A stretch of 64,000 bases of DNA. Origin: a virus (lineage: Duplodnaviria; Heunggongvirae; Uroviricota; Caudoviricetes). Location of the stretch: IMG/VR virus record IMGVR_UViG_2541047426_000030; one strand, written 5' to 3'. The first letter of the stretch is position 1. Every line of letters starts with the position of its first letter. Below, piece after piece: positions 48,001-54,000 of this stretch. The position numbers are program-made.

Positions 48001-51000
48001 GACCGTTGGCTGGTTGGCGAGTTTGGCTTTGAGTCTGTCGAGGCAACAGCCTACGAAATCGACAAAAAGCTGTGTGGTCACCTTGCGAAGCACTTAACCG
48101 GGTACAGGAGAGTGACGCCCCGCATCATCGAAGGGGATTATATTGAGCTGGCAACCGCCGAAGGTCTACAGGATCGAGGTTATACCCATGCAATACTTAA
48201 TCCGCCTTACAAGAAGATCAATAGCCAGTCAGCCCACCGGCAGGCTCTTCGCACTGTCGGTATCGAGACGGTAAATCTGTATTCCGCCTTTGTTGCACTG
48301 GCTGTAGGTGAGGTTGCACCTGGCGGGCAGATAGTGGCCATAATCCCACGTAGTTTCTGCAACGGACCGTATTACCGTCCGTTCCGTAATTTCATACTTG
48401 AGCGGGCAGCAATCCGCCATATTCATTTGTTCGAATCACGTAGCAAAGCTTTCAGGGATGACGATGTGTTGCAGGAAAATATTATCATCCGCCTGGAGCG
48501 TGGAGGCCGTCAGGAGGCTGTTACAGTCACAACTTCGACCGATGATAGCTTTTTTGACCTGGTCACCTACGAACACCCATTTGACCAGATTGTGTACCCG
48601 GACGATTCGGAGCGGTTTATTCATGTGCCGACCACGCTCGAGAAAAGCACCATTGAGTTATCATCTGCCGTACAATGTTCGCTGGCTGATATTGGCGTGA
48701 AGGTATCGACCGGACCGATAGTTGATTTCCGACTGAAAGCTCATTTGCGCAGCATGCCAGAAGAAGGAACTGTTCCCCTGATCTACCCGAGCCATTTGAG
48801 TATGAGTAGCACTGTCTGGCCTGTGGAAGGTTTGAAGAAACCCAACGCAATCATGCGCAACGACGAGACAGAAAAGTGGCTTTACCCGAACGGTTTTTAT
48901 TGTGTGGTGCGTCGTTTCTCGTCGAAGGAGGAAAAGCGCCGAGTGGTAGCAAGCGTCGTTGATCCTGCTACCTTCAGTGAGTATTCAGTGTTGGGATTTG
49001 AAAATCACATGAACGTGTTTCATGAGAACAAACATGGGTTACCCGAGGCGCTGGCCCGTGGCTTGGCCGTGTTCCTGAACACTACCGCAGTGGATAAGTA
49101 TTTCCGTCGCTTCAACGGGCATACACAGGTCAATGCAACCGACCTCAAGATGATTAAGTACCCAAGCCGTGACACTCTGATAGAGCTTGGCAAGTGGGCT
49201 ATGCAACAAGAAACTCTCACGCAAGAACATATTGACGCTAAGCTAGGAGCTCTGACTGCATGAACAACCAAAATGATTATATTGAGGCCGCTCAGCAAAT
49301 TATAGCATCCTTAGGCCTGCCCAGAGCGCAGCAGAATGAGCGTTCTGCTTTGTGTTTGCTGGCACTCCTGAACCTCACACCGGGAAAAGCATGGGCCGAC
49401 GCGGAAAATCCGCTTGTGGGCATTACACCAATCATGAATTGGGTTCGGGAGCACTACGGCAAGGTCTACGCACCCAATACTCGTGAGACATTCCGCCGCC
49501 AGTCTATGCATCAGTTCTGCGCTGCTGGAGTAGCCCTCTACAATCCGGACAAGCCCGATCGCCCAGTGAACAGCCCGAAGGCTGTTTATCAGATCGAACC
49601 TGCTGCTCTGTCCATGCTACGCACTTTCGGCAGCCCGGCATGGCACGATAGCCTTGCAACCTATTTAGCCGAGCGTGAAACGCTGGTTACCCGCTATGCT
49701 AAGGAGCGCGAACAGAATCGTATCCCTGTTGAAATTGCTGCGGGCCAGCAAATAACCCTCAGTCCCGGCGAGCACAGCGAACTTATCCGTGCCATAATAG
49801 AGGACTTCGCCCCACGTTTTGCTCCGGGTAGCGTGCTGGTCTATGCTGGCGACACTGGCGAAAAGTGGGGCTACTTCGACGCTCCACTGCTGGCCGGGCT
49901 AGGTGTTGATGTGGATTCACACGGTAAAATGCCAGATGTGGTGCTACATTTTACTGCGAAAAACTGGCTGCTACTGGTTGAGTCTGTCACCAGTCATGGA
50001 CCGGTTGATGGGAAGCGGCATGCTGAGCTTGCCAGGCTGTTTGCCGGATCAACAGCCGGACTTGTCTATGTGACCGCTTTTCCAAATCGCTCCATCATGG
50101 GGCGATATCTTGGTGAAATCGCATGGGAAACAGAGGTATGGGTGGCTGATGCACCTTCTCATCTTATTCACTTCAACGGAGTGCGATTTCTTGGCCCCTA
50201 CTCTACTGAATGAGAACAGGACCAGATAAATAGCCCGGCCCATGCGCCGGGTTTTTCTTTGCATATCCCCTCCTGTTATCTGTCCCCTTAAAAAATAAAT
50301 CACTTTAAAAATCAGTTAAGTAATAATTTCTCGTCCTTAAAAAAAGCACCGACGGTATTTACATGAAAATAACCGCAAGTTATATTTATTTCAAGCCAGA
50401 AACATCGCGCCCTTACACAGGGCTACATAAATCAGTCGTACGGCGCGACTTAACCCGCCGCAAAATGCTCTTTAACAATCTGGAGCTTTACAGCGTCAAT
50501 GACCTGTTTAGACCCCTACACGTAAACGTGCTGTATCATCGGGTGCGATCCGGTCGATGAGAGAGTATCCCCGCGCGAGAGCGAGAACGGCGTGAGAACG
50601 GGCAACACTGGCAGGAAGTTGGCGCTGACCAATACAGGGAATGTTTTGGGGTGTGGTGAAGGGTTCATGGACGGGAATATGTCGCACGTAAAGCGGCGAG
50701 GCCCGAGGGACTATTGCTGAAGATAAGTAGGCCGAATCGGGTCGAAATGGGTCTCCCACCTGCCACATCGCCAAAGCATTTCCGAGAAAGGACGGTATTG
50801 ACTGCGTGTGATGCCGGGGCTATATTGGGCGAACACCTTATAAAACGGGTGTCGGGATTCTCACCCCGCTGACAATCGAGGCGATACAGACGCGCCAGCG
50901 TCTTTTTTTGTATCGACATACACGCACATCTTATCAATGGTGGGCTGTATGGGGCCGACTTCGGTCGGGCTGGTTCCCTTGATTGCCAGTTGTGAGAACC

Positions 51001-54000
51001 CTGTACAGTCCACCGCCAGCGAGCTTCTCACCTCCTGCGGTGGTTATTAATCACCAATCAAGGAGGCTGCCATTATGGCTACTATCCCAGTCCTTTCTCA
51101 ACCTGAAATCACCATTTCCAATGGCCGCGCTGTTACTACGTCCTTTGCCGTTGCCGAATATTTTTGCAAGCGACACGATAACGTATTACGTGCCATTGCA
51201 AATATTGAATGCTCAGAGAAATTTAACGCCCTCAATTTTGAGGACGTTACCTACACCGACGCCAAAGGCGAACAACGCCCAATGTACCAAATCACCAAAA
51301 ACGGATTCGTCTTCCTGGTGATGGGCTTCACTGGTAAAAAAGCAGCTGCATTCAAGGAAGCCTATATTGCTGAATTCGATCGCATGGAAAAACAGCTATG
51401 GGAACAGAAACAACTGGCTCTGTCTTCTCCTGCGATGAATATCAATTTTCCTTTATCGTGGTTTTCAGAGCATCACCCCTACGCCACGATGAACTATGTT
51501 GATCGCAAGGTTATCAGCCTTGATGCTTCCGTACTCTTCGACATGCCAAGCCCAACTATGCGCATCCTCAACGAGCTACACAGCAAGGGCTATAACGTTG
51601 ACGCCGCTGTCGCCGAATTTAACGCCTTCAAGCATCTGACGGAAGAAATGCGCCGTAAATTGCTGGATATTTCCCGCACATCGGAAAAATCTTCCCGCTT
51701 TGGTTTCAACGTTAATCTTTAATTAAATCTCTCCCCGATTATATATCGGGGATTAAATTAAATATCTGGATTAATTAACCGGAGGATTTGTCATGCTCAA
51801 ACCTCACTACGGAACCATATTAGTTTCTCGCAAGGACGTTAAACCCGGCACAGCAATTCTTTACAACGGGCGTTATTACATGGCGTCAGCTAACGTTAAT
51901 AATGCACTTTACGCACATTCACTGATTGAAAAAATTCGCATTATTTCAGATGCAATAGAAGTTTACCTGAACCATAAAGGCCAGCCGTTAATCTCACCAG
52001 CCTGAAAGGAAATATCATGCTCAATCAAAAAATTAATATCAATGTAAAAAGCGTCGTAACGCCAGCAGAAACTATAATGGGTGAAGTTTTTATGGATGAT
52101 AAAATCATCGCCTATTTTTTTGTCCTGCCTGATGAGGCTATTTCTGTTATTGATACGGAAGGCAATGTTATGTTTATCGCAGAAAATCCAGAAGACATCG
52201 CATTACAGGCCGCTGCATATTTCTTCGCTAAGGAGCAGGAGGAAGAATGTGACTGCCCTGTCTGTCAGCTTTCCCGACAAATTAATTTAATGCATTAACC
52301 GAAATCAGGAGTTCCGCCATGAACGCATACCTCACCTGTGACCGAATAGAGGAGCGTCGCTGGGTTAATCAGCACATTCAGGATGAAAAGGATAAATGGA
52401 TTGACGATCGGGCGCAGGAGCTTATCAGCATGTTCCCCGATAAACCATTGCTTATGAGCAGCCTTTTTTTACCCAAAGAAGCCCAGCTGGCACTTACTGG
52501 CGATAAAGCGGAAGAGGCTTACAACGATTATATCTCAGCGATCGCCTATGCACGGGCGGAAGAAGAATGGGAGAGGAAATTCTCCCCCTGTCCTTTCTGA
52601 TTTTCAGGACCAATAAAAATGTTCGATATCGTTGAATTTGTTAAACAGCAGGAGCGCTTTTTCTGCGAAGCATTAACTGAACCGACGCTGACATGGGCTA
52701 AGGAAAGTCAGTTTGCAATTCAGCAATTCCAGAAAAATTCCTTTCTGGCTGACACAGCACGGGGAAATCTGTCCAGCGCACAGAACGCTATCATCAATGT
52801 TGCCGCCATAGGCATAACCCTGAACCCGGCCAGCAAGCTGGCGTATCTGGTACCACGAAAAAAGGCTGTATGCCTGGATATCAGTTATATGGGGCTTCTG
52901 CATCTGGCACAGGTCACAGGAGCCATTCAGTGGGGGCAATGCAAACTTGTTTACGAGAAGGACATTTACGAGTCCAACGGTATTGACTGCGCCCCCACGC
53001 ACAAATACAACCCATTCGTCGACAGGGGCGCACGCATTGGCGGTTATTGTGTCGTAAAAACATCCGAAGGCGACTATCTGACCGAAGAGATGAGCAACAG
53101 GGAAATCGAGGTCATCAGGGCGTGCAGCAAAGCCGGAAATAACGGAGGAAGTAGCCCGTGGGATAGTTTCCCCGATGAAATGGCCAGAAAAGCCATTGTT
53201 AAGCGCGCCAGCAAATACTGGCCCCGTCGCGATCGCCTGGATACAGCTATCGACTACCTGAACACTCAGGGCGGTGAAGGTATCATCCTGAATGCTGATC
53301 ACATCCCTGAGCGTGACGTCACTCCCGCATCAGATGAGATTATCAATGAGATCACTCAGGCAATCACCGAAATTAACAAGACATGGGATGACCTGCTTCC
53401 CTTATGTTCCAAAACATTCCGTCGCACGATTGCATCACATGAATATCTCAGTCAGGAAGAAGCTGTCAAAACGCTTGATTTTGTCAAAAAGAAAGCTGCC
53501 AGAAACAAGGCCACGGCGGAAGCGAAAATTCACGCCACCACGGAAAATAACAGCGAGGCCGTGTCATGACACCAGAAATTATTCTCCAGCGAACTGGCGT
53601 GGATATTACCAGCCTCGACCAGGGCGATGATGGATGGCACAAGCTGAGACTCGGTGTTATCACTGCTTCAGAAGTTCACAATGTGATAGCAAAGCCACGT
53701 TCCGGCAGCAAATGGCCTGATACAAAAATGTCATACTTCCACACCCTGCTGGCTGAAGTTTGTACTGGCGTGGCACCGGAAGTTAACGCTAAGTCGCTCG
53801 CATGGGGAAAGCAATACGAAGATGATGCCCGTGCCCTCTTCGAGTTTATCGCGGATGTTACCGTCTCGGAAACGCCAATAATTTTTCGTGACGAAAGCAT
53901 GCGCACCGCCTGCTCTCCCGACGGTTTATGCAGCGACGGTAACGGCCTTGAGCTTAAATGCCCCTTCACTTCCCGCGACTTCATGAAGTTCCGGCTTGGC

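What the first reader, a model, noticed from the sequence alone, without database searches (positions are those of the whole stretch)
50214..51075. Early-left control region lacks a recognisable N gene; promoter, hairpin and terminator define a possible small RNA
Between the R-M terminator and the first early-left gene there are 860 bp with no convincing ORF; the only plus-strand ORF is 65 aa (50363..50560) with a basic stretch HKSVVRRDLTRRK. Sequence shows a near-consensus promoter TTGACT-N17-TATATT (50798-50826), then about 60 nt later a GGGTG/CACCC hairpin and an intrinsic terminator (50887-50909), preceded by a GC- and purine-rich segment (50540-50770). This resembles either a nutL/N region with a highly divergent N, an RNA-based (put-like) antitermination element, or a prophage small RNA. 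Position directly after the lysogenically expressed cI-M-R unit makes a regulatory RNA plausible.
Basis: partly seen in the sequence, partly recalled or inferred. Interest (0 to 1): 0.65.

Follow-up and report, generated by a model that had tools for sequence, protein, structure and literature searches.

The report
Antisense-RNA gate on phage antirepressor
The "empty" 860 bp of this Shiga-toxin phage holds the leftover leader of a lost N gene, followed by a known two-RNA switch (IsrK plus a C4-type antisense RNA, as in phages P1, P4 and N15) that most likely controls an antirepressor gene, so it is a clear but ordinary member of a known system.

Summary
The promoter (50798-50826), hairpins and terminator (50888-50909) are real, and no N gene is present.

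The promoter-to-terminator unit is a member of Rfam family isrK (50833-50908; 58.7 bits, threshold 50). This C4 RNA has two exposed segments. They are complementary to two sites in IsrK and to two sites in the leader of the next gene. One leader site covers the ribosome-binding site of that gene, a Rha-family antirepressor (51075-51722).

Phage P1 immI and phage N15 show the same layout here; the Gifsy-1 isrK locus has it by its published description. Closely related Stx phages change the same three bases at all three sites in step. In viral contigs, 60 of 61 cassettes (42 distinct) keep the pairing, across 10 different triplets.

Upstream, 50466-50782 is 95% identical to phage phi80 from nutL boxA to just before the N start codon. 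N and its ribosome-binding site were replaced by this cassette. The likely repressor-controlled pL is a different promoter, at 50358-50386. The 65-aa ORF is probably spurious.

The absence of N in these phages is already published. A second cassette with a different specificity lies at 62757-63705. This is a new member of a known kind, of modest interest.

The parts
50232..50253 (+). Intrinsic terminator that ends the cI-methylase-endonuclease operon
   Evidence: 8-bp stem with 6 G-C pairs, followed by a T run. It lies directly after the endonuclease stop codon (50213).
50358..50386 (+). Probable early-left promoter pL (TTTACA-17-TATATT); transcript start near 50393
   Evidence: One search finds the promoter-like site. 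In phage PV11-59, which carries a different immunity region, the sequence differs upstream of about 50392, yet a TTGACT-17-TATATT promoter sits at the same place and identity begins right after the -10. In phi80 the annotated pL lies about 65 nt upstream of the homologous boxA.
50369..50383 (.). Candidate CI operator ATAACCGCAAGTTAT, overlapping the -10 of pL
   Evidence: of the four matches to ATAAC-N5-GTTAT with at most 1 mismatch in 64 kb, one is this exact site and two (46918-46932 and 46966-46980) lie in the 95-bp cro-cI intergenic region. The motif was derived after seeing this site, so it is a lead, not a proof.
50466..50478 (+). nutL boxA (TGCTCTTTAACAA)
   Evidence: It is the only exact match in the window. 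It aligns with the feature annotated 'nutL boxA' in phi80.
50519..50530 (+). phi80-type 'nutL core' hairpin CACGTAAACGTG
   Evidence: It aligns with the phi80 feature 'nutL core' at L003 2554-2565.
50466..50782 (+). Relic of nutL plus the N-gene leader; the N ORF and its ribosome-binding site are missing
   Evidence: It is 95.3% identical to phi80 over L003 2501-2817, which ends 36 nt before the phi80 N start. The sub-segment 50645-50776 is 91.7% identical to the N leader of mEp234 and 933W-type phages. About 105 bp of it (about 50657-50761) is deleted in TL-2011c, PV11-59 and JNE121849.
50798..50826 (+). The cassette's own promoter (TTGACT-17-TATATT), called PisrK here
   Evidence: Both hexamers are invariant in the four aligned phages. 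The isrK model starts 7 nt after the -10. No match to the operator candidate lies here.
50833..50909 (+). IsrK / P4 seqA-like small RNA of about 77 nt. It carries site a1 (50858-50864, UUCUCAC), site b1 (50873-50881, CAAUCGAGG) and its intrinsic terminator (50888-50909).
   Evidence: Rfam RF01394 scores 58.7 bits against a gathering score of 50. Terminator. Site coordinates.
50933..51020 (+). C4-type antisense RNA (the family of P1 c4, P4 CI and N15 CA RNAs). Its exposed loop b' is at 50977-50985 (CCUUGAUUG) and its unpaired segment a' is at 50992-50998 (GUGAGAA).
   Evidence: Rfam RF01695 scores 77.1 bits against a gathering score of 45. The predicted fold is -43.5 kcal/mol with z = -4.15. 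15 of 27 pairs show compensatory changes across 21 homologues.
50937..51050 (+). 37-codon upstream ORF that starts at the AUG in the C4 5' stem; counterpart of Gifsy-1 orf45
   Evidence: It is in frame with rha. In TL-2011c and several other phages there is no stop, so it is fused to rha. Its length ranges from 14 to 46 codons where a stop is present. It matches positions 53-88 of the same PHROG profile as Rha.
51025..51066 (+). Target sites in the rha leader: a2 at 51025-51031 (UUCUCAC), b2 at 51055-51063 (CAAUCAAGG), overlapping the Shine-Dalgarno AAGGAGG at 51060-51066
   Evidence: One search gives the coordinates and shows a C4 core x leader duplex of -23.3 kcal/mol, against -13.8 for the other cassette's leader. 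Covariation.
51075..51722 (+). Rha-family antirepressor-like gene, the first gene of the early-left operon
   Evidence: Pfam Phage_pRha, E 2e-32. TIGR02681. PHROG families annotated as anti-repressor or transcriptional regulator. No plus-strand intrinsic terminator follows before kil at 51793.
62757..63737 (+). Second cassette with a different specificity. Promoter 62757-62786. IsrK-like RNA 62793-62866 (a1 UUCGAAC, b1 GAAACC). C4-like RNA 62892-62975 (b' GGUUUC, a' GUUCGAA). Leader sites 62979-62985 and 63006-63012. ORF6N antirepressor 63028-63705. Terminator 63719-63737.

Best explanation
The interval is a composite of two things.

(1) The start of the early-left operon (50232-50782). It holds the terminator of the cI-methylase-endonuclease operon. 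It then holds a probable CI-controlled pL promoter at 50358-50386. After that comes a phi80-type nutL site and the N-gene leader. The N ORF and its ribosome-binding site have been cut out, so nutL is a relic.

(2) A P1 immI / P4 / N15-type RNA immunity cassette, inserted exactly where N used to be.

- Its own promoter (50798-50826) carries no match to the candidate CI operator and is probably active in the lysogen.
- Most transcripts stop at the intrinsic terminator at 50888-50909. This gives an IsrK/seqA-like RNA of about 77 nt.
- Read-through transcripts, and transcripts from pL after induction, carry the C4-type RNA (50933-51020). By analogy with P1 c4 and P4 CI, this RNA is cut out of the longer transcript.
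- Two exposed segments of C4 (b' at 50977-50985 and a' at 50992-50998) pair with a2 and b2 in the rha leader. Site b2 covers the Shine-Dalgarno sequence, so Rha is not translated.
- By analogy with P1 icd/ant, the untranslated message is then prone to Rho-dependent termination. That would also damp the genes behind rha.
- The same C4 segments also pair with a1 and b1 in IsrK. Free IsrK can therefore titrate C4, or open the read-through mRNA, and switch translation on, as shown for Gifsy-1 IsrK. The IsrK:C4 balance would set antirepressor output.
- Rha, once made, is expected to counteract the prophage repressor.

Shown here: family membership, the architecture, the base complementarity and its covariation, and the loss of N. 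Inferred, not shown: promoter activity, RNA processing, the direction of regulation, Rho polarity and Rha's target.
For: RNA family membership:
- isrK and C4 both score above their gathering thresholds.
- The C4 fold has z = -4.15. 15 of 27 pairs keep pairing through changes on both sides across 21 homologues, including P1-like RCS47 and N15.
- The same isrK-then-C4 arrangement, followed by an antirepressor gene, is found in P1-like RCS47 (between pacB and ant) and in N15 (upstream of genes 32-31-30 Ant).
- The P1-like icd start AAGGAGGCTGCCATTATGGCTACTGTCCCT is almost identical to the rha start here.

Base pairing:
- Cognate duplexes are much stronger than cross-cassette ones. C4#1 core with IsrK#1 gives -29.7 kcal/mol, against -10.7 with IsrK#2. 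C4#1 core with its own leader gives -23.3, against -13.8 with the other leader.

Three-site covariation among otherwise about 97-100% identical Stx phages, written as IsrK site / C4 site / leader site:
- window: UUCUCAC / GUGAGAA / UUCUCAC
- TL-2011c: UUGCUAC / GUAGCAA / UUGCUAC
- PV11-59: UUAGGAC / GUCCUAA / UUAGGAC
- JNE121849 also switches the b sites together.

Covariation in IMG/VR viral contigs:
- 60 of 61 cassettes (42 distinct sequences) have an a' triplet exactly complementary to a1, across 10 triplet types.
- 40 of 42 distinct cassettes have the matching a2 site, against 2 of 378 for non-cognate triplets.
- All seven downstream genes sampled are antirepressor-type: ORF6N, P22_AR_C, AntA or Bro-N.

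Loss of N:
- phi80 and mEp234 homology ends at the N start or its ribosome-binding site.
- No N homologue is found by tblastn, Pfam, PHROGs or NCBIfam.

Literature:
- Gifsy-1 IsrK works on its own read-through mRNA (isrK-orf45-anrP) and is called a structural homologue of P4 seqA; STnc1160 is a processed RNA downstream of IsrK (PMC4825925).
- The Rfam C4 and isrK profiles detect relatives of P4 CI and seqA (PMC10111431).
- IsrK and STnc1160 are highly expressed in Gifsy-1 lysogens (PMC7067206).
Against: - There are no expression data for this phage. Promoter activity, the terminator's read-through rate, C4 processing and Hfq binding are all untested.
- The sign of regulation differs between the published models. 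P1 c4 and P4 CI repress, while Gifsy-1 IsrK activates. The net behaviour here is therefore inferred.
- Cassette 2's leader pairing discriminates only weakly (-15.6 and -14.8 kcal/mol cognate, against -14.3 and -11.6 non-cognate).
- The IMG/VR cassettes are not phylogenetically independent, and they were picked with a pattern that fixes the bases flanking a1.
- Rha-domain proteins are only annotated as antirepressors or regulators. No target is known for this one.
- The CI operator motif was derived post hoc.
Confidence: 0.8

Rival explanations
1. The cassette is mainly a transcription gate for the whole early-left operon and so replaces N/nutL/tL1 functionally. The IsrK terminator stops pL transcripts. 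C4 pairing with the seqA-like and seqC-like sites, as in P4, decides whether RNA polymerase continues into rha-kil-gam-recT-exo. Control of Rha translation would be secondary. This overlaps with the best explanation rather than excluding it.
For: - The cassette sits exactly where N was, between the pL/nutL leader and the first early-left gene.
- No plus-strand intrinsic terminator separates rha from kil and the recombination genes. The next good one is at 60878-60901.
- In P4, CI RNA paired with seqA and seqC causes premature termination (PMC4825925 discussion; PMC10111431).
Against: - Cassette 2 and most IMG/VR cassettes gate a single antirepressor gene. Cassette 2's gene is followed by its own terminator.
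- Site b2 lies on the Shine-Dalgarno sequence, which is the P1-type mark of translational control.
- No termination data exist for this phage.
Confidence: 0.3
2. The IsrK-like RNA is chiefly a trans-acting, Hfq-dependent small RNA that regulates host or other prophage mRNAs, as the Stx-phage RNAs AsxR and AgvB do. Its link to rha would be incidental.
For: - The Rfam family is described as 'isrK Hfq binding RNA'.
- It has the expected shape: its own promoter, a length of about 77 nt and a Rho-independent terminator with a U tail.
- Other small RNAs of this same prophage act on host targets; AsxR lies at 39307-39359.
Against: - The variable bases of IsrK covary with C4 and with the rha leader, not with any host sequence.
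- That is expected only if its selected partner is the cassette itself.
- Ten different a-site triplets would not be tolerated by a conserved host target.
Confidence: 0.1
3. The interval encodes a highly divergent N-like antiterminator (the 65-aa ORF with the basic stretch) that acts at the nutL site.
For: - A consensus boxA and a phi80-type nutL core are present and well conserved.
- The ORF contains a basic stretch.
Against: - The ORF has no Pfam, PHROG or NCBIfam match.
- tblastn with three N types gives no hit better than E = 0.47.
- The ORF starts at 50363, inside the pL promoter and upstream of the likely transcript start. It also runs across boxA, which must act as RNA.
- Its first 10 codons are replaced in PV11-59.
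- In phi80 the homologous DNA is annotated as non-coding leader.
Confidence: 0.03
4. An HK022 put-like RNA in the leader makes RNA polymerase termination-resistant without any protein.
For: The phage lacks N. The pL leader is long and partly structured.
Against: - There is no sequence similarity to the HK022 immunity region, which should hold putL and putR (its put sites are not annotated in that record; best E = 1.8).
- The leader is homologous to the nutL/N leaders of phages that do use N.
- 105 bp of it is deleted in sister phages.
- The fold of 50393-50540 is not unusual (z = -1.23).
- No put covariance model was available, so structure-level similarity was not tested.
Confidence: 0.03

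Closest known systems
Phage P1/P7 immI region (c4 antisense RNA - icd - ant)
   Same: - An isrK-type element carrying sites a1/b1 is followed by a C4 RNA carrying a'/b', then by a2/b2, with b2 on the Shine-Dalgarno AAGGAGG (P1-like RCS47).
- The sequence around the start codon is almost identical in the two phages.
- The regulated product is an antirepressor.
- Specificity changes by co-variation of the short sites, as between P1 and P7 (own knowledge: Citron and Schuster 1990).
   Different: - There is no icd gene. The regulated ORF runs straight into a Rha-domain protein.
- The cassette sits at the head of a lambdoid early-left operon in place of N, not next to pac.
- This phage carries two cassettes.
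Salmonella Gifsy-1 isrK-orf45-anrP locus (PMC4825925)
   Same: - The RNA belongs to the same Rfam family, with its own promoter and a leaky intrinsic terminator.
- A short upstream ORF overlaps the structured RNA downstream of IsrK (STnc1160 in Salmonella).
- An antirepressor-like gene follows.
- The middle of IsrK is complementary to about 30 nt of the downstream element (-29.7 kcal/mol here).
   Different: - In Gifsy-1 the locus lies downstream of a Q-like gene (antQ) and is followed by IsrJ. Here it lies behind pL/nutL and is followed by kil, gam-like, recT and exo genes.
- Here the upstream ORF has 37 codons and is in frame with rha. In sister phages it is fused to rha.
Satellite phage P4 immunity (seqA - CI RNA - seqC) and phage N15 antirepressor locus (CA RNA)
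   Same: - The same two Rfam families occur in the same order in N15. For P4 the equivalence rests on the literature (PMC10111431; PMC4825925).
- An RNA excised from the leader pairs with sites on both sides of itself.
   Different: - In P4 the outcome is premature termination that silences replication genes.
- In N15 the promoter is LexA-controlled (own knowledge: Mardanov and Ravin 2007). I saw no LexA box here by eye; this was not tested with a tool.
Phage phi80 pL-nutL-N region
   Same: 95% identity runs from nutL boxA through the 'nutL core' to 36 nt before N.
   Different: The phi80 N gene and terminators tL1A/tL1B are absent. The operators and immunity region differ.

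Membership tests
Rfam RF01394 isrK (IsrK / P4 seqA-like leader RNA) | The covariance model scores at or above the curated gathering score | tested here: met
   58.7 bits against 50, full-length match to model positions 1-77. The second copy scores 53.0 bits.
Rfam RF01394 isrK (IsrK / P4 seqA-like leader RNA) | Own promoter directly upstream and a Rho-independent terminator at the 3' end | tested here: met
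   TTGACT-17-TATATT ends 7 nt before model position 1. A 6-bp G+C-rich stem followed by U7 lies at 50888-50909. These are consensus matches only; transcription was not measured.
Rfam RF01394 isrK (IsrK / P4 seqA-like leader RNA) | Lies immediately 5' of a C4/orf45-type element and an antirepressor gene, and is complementary to that element | tested here: met
   C4 starts 25 nt after the terminator, and the rha gene follows. The cognate duplex is -29.7 kcal/mol against -10.7 for the non-cognate one. The a1/a' triplets are complementary in 60 of 61 cassettes.
Rfam RF01394 isrK (IsrK / P4 seqA-like leader RNA) | Binds Hfq and activates translation of its own read-through mRNA | not testable with these tools
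   This needs co-immunoprecipitation and reporter fusions.
Rfam RF01695 C4 antisense RNA (P1/P7 c4, P4 CI, N15 CA) | The covariance model scores at or above the gathering score, and the fold is supported by compensatory changes | tested here: met
   77.1 bits against 45. z = -4.15. 15 of 27 pairs have changes on both sides with pairing kept, across 21 sequences that include P1-like and N15 RNAs.
Rfam RF01695 C4 antisense RNA (P1/P7 c4, P4 CI, N15 CA) | Two exposed recognition segments (a', b') are complementary to sites both upstream (a1, b1) and downstream (a2, b2) | tested here: met
   Three-way covariation is seen in sister phages and in IMG/VR cassettes.
Rfam RF01695 C4 antisense RNA (P1/P7 c4, P4 CI, N15 CA) | Site b2 overlaps the ribosome-binding site of the first downstream ORF | tested here: met
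   b2 at 51055-63 overlaps AAGGAGG at 51060-66, 9 nt before the ATG at 51075. In cassette 2, b2 ends 3 nt before the Shine-Dalgarno sequence.
Rfam RF01695 C4 antisense RNA (P1/P7 c4, P4 CI, N15 CA) | The mature RNA is cut out of a longer transcript (by RNase P) and represses antirepressor synthesis | not testable with these tools
   This is known for P1 c4 and P4 CI (own knowledge). It needs RNA end mapping and genetics.
Lambdoid N antiterminator / nut system | An N-family protein is encoded just downstream of nutL | tested here: not met
   tblastn with lambda, phi80 and mEp234 N gives a best E of 0.47. No Pfam, PHROG or NCBIfam hit was found for any ORF of the interval, apart from the C4-encoded peptide, which matches Rha-type PHROGs, and one weak hit (E 0.0017) of the minus-strand 90-aa ORF to an unknown-function PHROG. 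Homology to phi80 and mEp234 ends at the N start or its ribosome-binding site.
Lambdoid N antiterminator / nut system | A nut site (boxA plus a boxB-type hairpin) lies in the pL transcript | tested here: met
   An exact boxA lies at 50466-50478 and the phi80 'nutL core' hairpin at 50519-50530, homologous to annotated phi80 features. No second boxA was found on the pR side.
HK022 put RNA | Similarity to putL/putR | tested here: inconclusive
   No sequence similarity to HK022 27600-32500 was found (best E 1.8). No structural model was available, so the two-stem-loop architecture was not tested.

The most novel reading that the evidence does not exclude
In the N-less Oslovirus group of Stx2a phages (PA2, ArgO145, TL-2011c, and the O104:H4 outbreak phage type), the IsrK/C4 cassette may have taken over N's place as gatekeeper of the early-left operon. 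On this reading, expression of rha-kil-gam-recT-exo depends on an RNA-RNA switch whose specificity diversifies quickly. At least 3 a-site triplets occur among near-identical Stx phages, and 10 in viral contigs. The switch would also open an antirepressor-driven, possibly SOS-independent, route to prophage induction and toxin release. Two cassettes of different specificity in one phage would then feed antirepressors that share a C-terminal domain, giving two independent RNA-keyed inputs onto one repressor. The intact nutL might also let N proteins of co-resident lambdoid prophages act on this phage's pL transcript.
Probability: 0.2. Interest if true: 0.55.

Novelty: new member of a known kind. 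Interest (0 to 1): 0.3.

Why it matters
This phage type carries stx2a in high-virulence lineages, including O157:H7 PST2 strains and the phages of the O103:H25 and O104:H4 outbreak strains. Published comparisons note that these phages lack N, cII and cIII and that no operators could be found. Those papers suggest an unknown alternative control of the lysis-lysogeny choice (PMC4122784, PMC4587872).

This work fills part of that gap with a concrete, testable layout:
- a candidate pL and CI operator;
- a nutL/N-leader scar that marks where N was lost;
- an unannotated IsrK/C4 antisense-RNA cassette in front of an antirepressor. Phage and RefSeq records show only protein genes or nothing in this interval.

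If Rha does inactivate CI, the RNA switch would bear directly on Stx2 production. The underlying mechanism is textbook P1/P4/N15 biology, so the gain is in annotation and context, not a new principle.

Tried and rejected
- **Shared words between the cro-cI region and the interval.** No word of 9 bases or more is shared, and the 8-mers are irrelevant. Operators could not be found this way. The ATAAC-N5-GTTAT motif came from inspecting the pL site afterwards.
- **Permissive Rfam scan of 50150-51150.** Beyond isrK and C4 it gave only noise: bxd_1 (E 0.11), Trp_leader and a toxic sRNA on the R-M terminator (E 2.8).
- **Second boxA on the pR side.** None was found. The only other near match (52638-52650, minus strand, inside recT) is at chance level.
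- **Duplex prediction with whole RNAs.** It produced long artificial duplexes and did not discriminate cleanly. It was replaced by core-segment duplexes.
- **N search.** tblastn, Pfam, PHROGs and NCBIfam were all negative.
- **HK022 put comparison.** Negative at the sequence level.
- **LexA box at either cassette promoter.** None seen by eye; not tested with a tool.
- **Literature searches.** Some searches failed on syntax, and one search returned irrelevant papers. One search, a within-paper term look-up, also failed on syntax.
- **Minus-strand ORFs of the interval.** The 88-aa and 56-aa ORFs have no family hit, and the 90-aa ORF has only a weak one. I treated them as spurious.

Full report
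**Context.** The window is a Stx2a-converting prophage of the genus Oslovirus. The 862-bp interval is 99.9% identical to phages PA2, VT2phi_272, ArgO145 and Stx2a_F765, and about 97% identical to TL-2011c, P13374-like phages and phi191. The local gene order is:
- cro (minus strand, ending at 46687);
- cI (46986-47699);
- BsuBI-type methylase and endonuclease (47794-50213);
- the interval itself;
- a Rha-family gene (51075-51722);
- kil, a gam-like gene, recT, exo and further early-left genes.

Public phage records annotate nothing in the interval, or only short hypothetical ORFs. RefSeq E. coli genomes annotate only the Rha gene. All or part of the interval occurs in 665 of 5426 complete E. 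coli genomes.

**Observation.** The promoter-to-terminator unit is not a chance arrangement. Rfam family isrK matches 50833-50908 over its full length, at 58.7 bits against a gathering score of 50. Family C4 antisense RNA matches 50933-51020 at 77.1 bits against 45. A second isrK/C4 pair lies at 62793-62866 and 62892-62975.

**The left half of the interval is a pL-nutL-N-leader region without N.**
- A distant BLAST search showed that 50466-50782 is 95.3% identical to phage phi80.
- In the phi80 record this stretch starts at the annotated 'nutL boxA' and includes the 'nutL core'. It ends 36 nt before the N start codon. The phi80 pL and its CI operators lie just upstream.
- The sub-segment 50645-50776 is 91.7% identical to the N leader of mEp234 and of 933W-type Stx phages. 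There it lies between nutL boxB and the N ribosome-binding site.
- The three-way alignment shows homology breaking exactly at the N ribosome-binding site or start codon.
- The window has an exact boxA TGCTCTTTAACAA at 50466-50478, the only one in 64 kb, and the phi80-type hairpin CACGTAAACGTG at 50519-50530.
- tblastn with the N proteins of lambda, phi80 and mEp234 finds nothing in the window (best E = 0.47).
- The 65-aa ORF has no Pfam, PHROG or NCBIfam match.
- That ORF begins inside a promoter-like site (TTTACA-17-TATATT, 50358-50386), which is the likely pL.
- In phage PV11-59, which has a different immunity region, the sequence is unrelated up to about 50392. A TTGACT-17-TATATT promoter nevertheless sits at the same position, and near-perfect identity starts right after the -10.
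- A palindrome ATAACCGCAAGTTAT overlaps this -10. Of four matches with at most 1 mismatch in the window, two more lie in the 95-bp cro-cI region. This makes it a reasonable, though post hoc, CI operator candidate.
- TL-2011c, PV11-59 and JNE121849 lack about 105 bp of the N-leader relic, so that part is dispensable.

The absence of N, cII and cIII from this phage type is already published (PMC4122784). So is the failure to find operators in PST2 phages (PMC4587872).

**The right half is a P1 immI / P4 / N15-type RNA cassette.** The terminator (50888-50909) forms the 3' end of that model. The C4 RNA folds into the family's shape: a long closing stem, a tetraloop hairpin, a second hairpin with an open loop, and an unpaired stretch (-43.5 kcal/mol, z = -4.15). 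Across 21 homologues, including the c4 region of P1-like RCS47 and the N15 RNA, 15 of 27 pairs keep pairing through changes on both sides.

The two open segments are b' CCUUGAUUG (50977-50985) and a' GUGAGAA (50992-50998). Each is complementary to one site in IsrK and one site in the rha leader:

| Site | Location | Sequence |
|---|---|---|
| b1 (IsrK) | 50873-50881 | CAAUCGAGG |
| a1 (IsrK) | 50858-50864 | UUCUCAC |
| a2 (rha leader) | 51025-51031 | UUCUCAC |
| b2 (rha leader) | 51055-51063 | CAAUCAAGG |

Site b2 overlaps the Shine-Dalgarno AAGGAGG of rha. RCS47 (P1 immI, between pacB and ant) and N15 (upstream of genes 32-31-30 Ant) show the same isrK-then-C4 order. phi80, which keeps N, has neither RNA. 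The P1-like icd ribosome-binding site and first codons are almost identical to those of rha here.

**Covariation shows the pairings are under selection.** Four Stx phages are otherwise about 97-100% identical in this cassette, yet the central triplet of a1, a' and a2 changes in step:

| Phage | a1 / a' / a2 central triplets |
|---|---|
| window | CUC / GAG / CUC |
| TL-2011c and JNE121849 | GCU / AGC / GCU |
| PV11-59 | AGG / CCU / AGG |

JNE121849 also changes b1, b' and b2 together. A pattern scan of viral contigs gave cassettes in which 60 of 61 (42 distinct sequences) have an a' triplet exactly complementary to a1, over 10 triplet types. 40 of 42 distinct cassettes carry the matching a2 site, against 2 of 378 for non-cognate triplets. 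Longest b-site complementarity averages 8.1 and 8.7 nt for cognate pairs, against 5.8 and 6.9 nt for non-cognate pairs. These cassettes are related to each other and were selected with a pattern that fixes the a1 flanks, so the counts are not independent events. Ten distinct, always complementary triplets are still hard to explain otherwise.

The window's two cassettes have different specificities, and cognate duplexes are much more stable than crossed ones for the IsrK sites and for cassette 1's leader. All seven sampled downstream genes, cassette 2's among them, are antirepressor-type: ORF6N, P22_AR_C, AntA or Bro-N. The window's two are Rha and ORF6N proteins that share a 118-aa C-terminal domain at 69% identity.

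**Mechanism.** By homology with P1, C4 bound to a2/b2 blocks translation of the first ORF and thereby promotes Rho-dependent termination (own knowledge: Biere, Citron and Schuster 1992). By homology with P4, CI RNA paired with seqA and seqC causes early termination (PMC4825925, PMC10111431). Gifsy-1 has the same RNA family, a short ORF over the structured element and an antirepressor-like gene. [quoted passage not shown] IsrK and the downstream processed RNA STnc1160 are abundant in lysogens (PMC7067206).

My reading of this locus is as follows.
1. The cassette promoter is probably constitutive and makes mostly IsrK.
2. Read-through transcripts, and pL transcripts after induction, supply C4.
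3. C4 keeps rha untranslated.
4. The IsrK:C4 balance can release it.

No plus-strand terminator follows rha, so the cassette may also throttle the whole early-left operon. I treat that as a partly overlapping rival. Family membership, layout, complementarity and covariation are shown here. Promoter activity, RNA processing, the sign of regulation, Rho polarity and Rha's target are inferred.

**The upstream ORF.** The AUG in the C4 5' stem opens a 37-codon ORF (50937-51050) in frame with rha. In TL-2011c, PV11-59, JNE121849 and others there is no stop, so the ORF is fused to rha. Elsewhere its length ranges from 14 to 46 codons. A PHROG profile of 307 positions covers the C4-encoded peptide plus Rha. 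This fits the Gifsy-1 report that the nucleotide sequence of orf45 is conserved while its peptide is not (PMC12197685, PMC4825925).

**Rejected readings.** A divergent N and a put-like RNA are not supported. A purely host-directed small RNA is unlikely, because the variable bases of IsrK track C4 and the rha leader.

**Verdict.** The element is a straightforward, unannotated member of the known IsrK/C4 (P1 immI, P4, N15, Gifsy-1) RNA-immunity kind. The absence of N is already in the literature. The modest new points are:
- the precise replacement of N that leaves a nutL/N-leader scar;
- a candidate pL and CI operator for this phage type;
- two cassettes of different specificity in one Stx phage;
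- the clean three-site covariation among near-identical Stx phages.

Noticed in passing
window 62757-63737: A second IsrK/C4 cassette with a different specificity (a-site CGA/UCG, b-site GAAACC/GGUUUC). It gates an ORF6N-type antirepressor at 63028-63705 and has its own terminator. It is transcribed divergently from a ParD-like antitoxin gene (62446-62706, minus strand). The C-terminal 118 aa of the two antirepressors are 69% identical.
   Followed up: partly
window 46363-46656 (minus strand): A 97-aa ORF lies directly downstream of cro in the pR operon. It has an arginine-rich stretch (FRKGNRARRSANTRLRVYVQKYARASRGW). It is unannotated in ArgO145, matches PHROG 852 (unknown function), and has no Pfam or NCBIfam match. 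Given that N is missing, it may deserve a look as an RNA-binding or regulatory protein.
   Followed up: partly
L007 (TL-2011c) 2113-2902; also L005, L006, L014, L039, L072: In several sister phages, the stop codon that ends the C4-encoded upstream ORF in the window (TAA at 51048-51050) is absent. The AUG in the C4 5' stem then opens a 260/261-codon ORF fused in frame to rha.
   Followed up: partly
L007 (TL-2011c) 3036-3119: An sRNA-Xcc1 (RF02221) hit of 79.6 bits lies right after rha in TL-2011c. The window has no such hit.
   Followed up: no
window 46918-46932, 46966-46980, 50369-50383: Candidate CI operator ATAAC-N5-GTTAT. It occurs twice in the cro-cI intergenic region and once over the -10 of the probable pL. 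Published work could not find operators in this (PST2) phage type.
   Followed up: partly
window 39307-39566, 40975-41223, 34528-34644: Known Stx-phage RNAs AsxR and STnc100, three tRNA genes, and an IS3-family frameshift pseudoknot (ALIL) all score above their Rfam thresholds.
   Followed up: no
window ~50657-50761: About 105 bp of the N-leader relic is deleted in TL-2011c, PV11-59 and JNE121849. By contrast, 50393-50655 (hairpin, boxA, nutL core) is nearly invariant, even in a phage with a different immunity region. It is unclear whether nutL is still used.
   Followed up: partly
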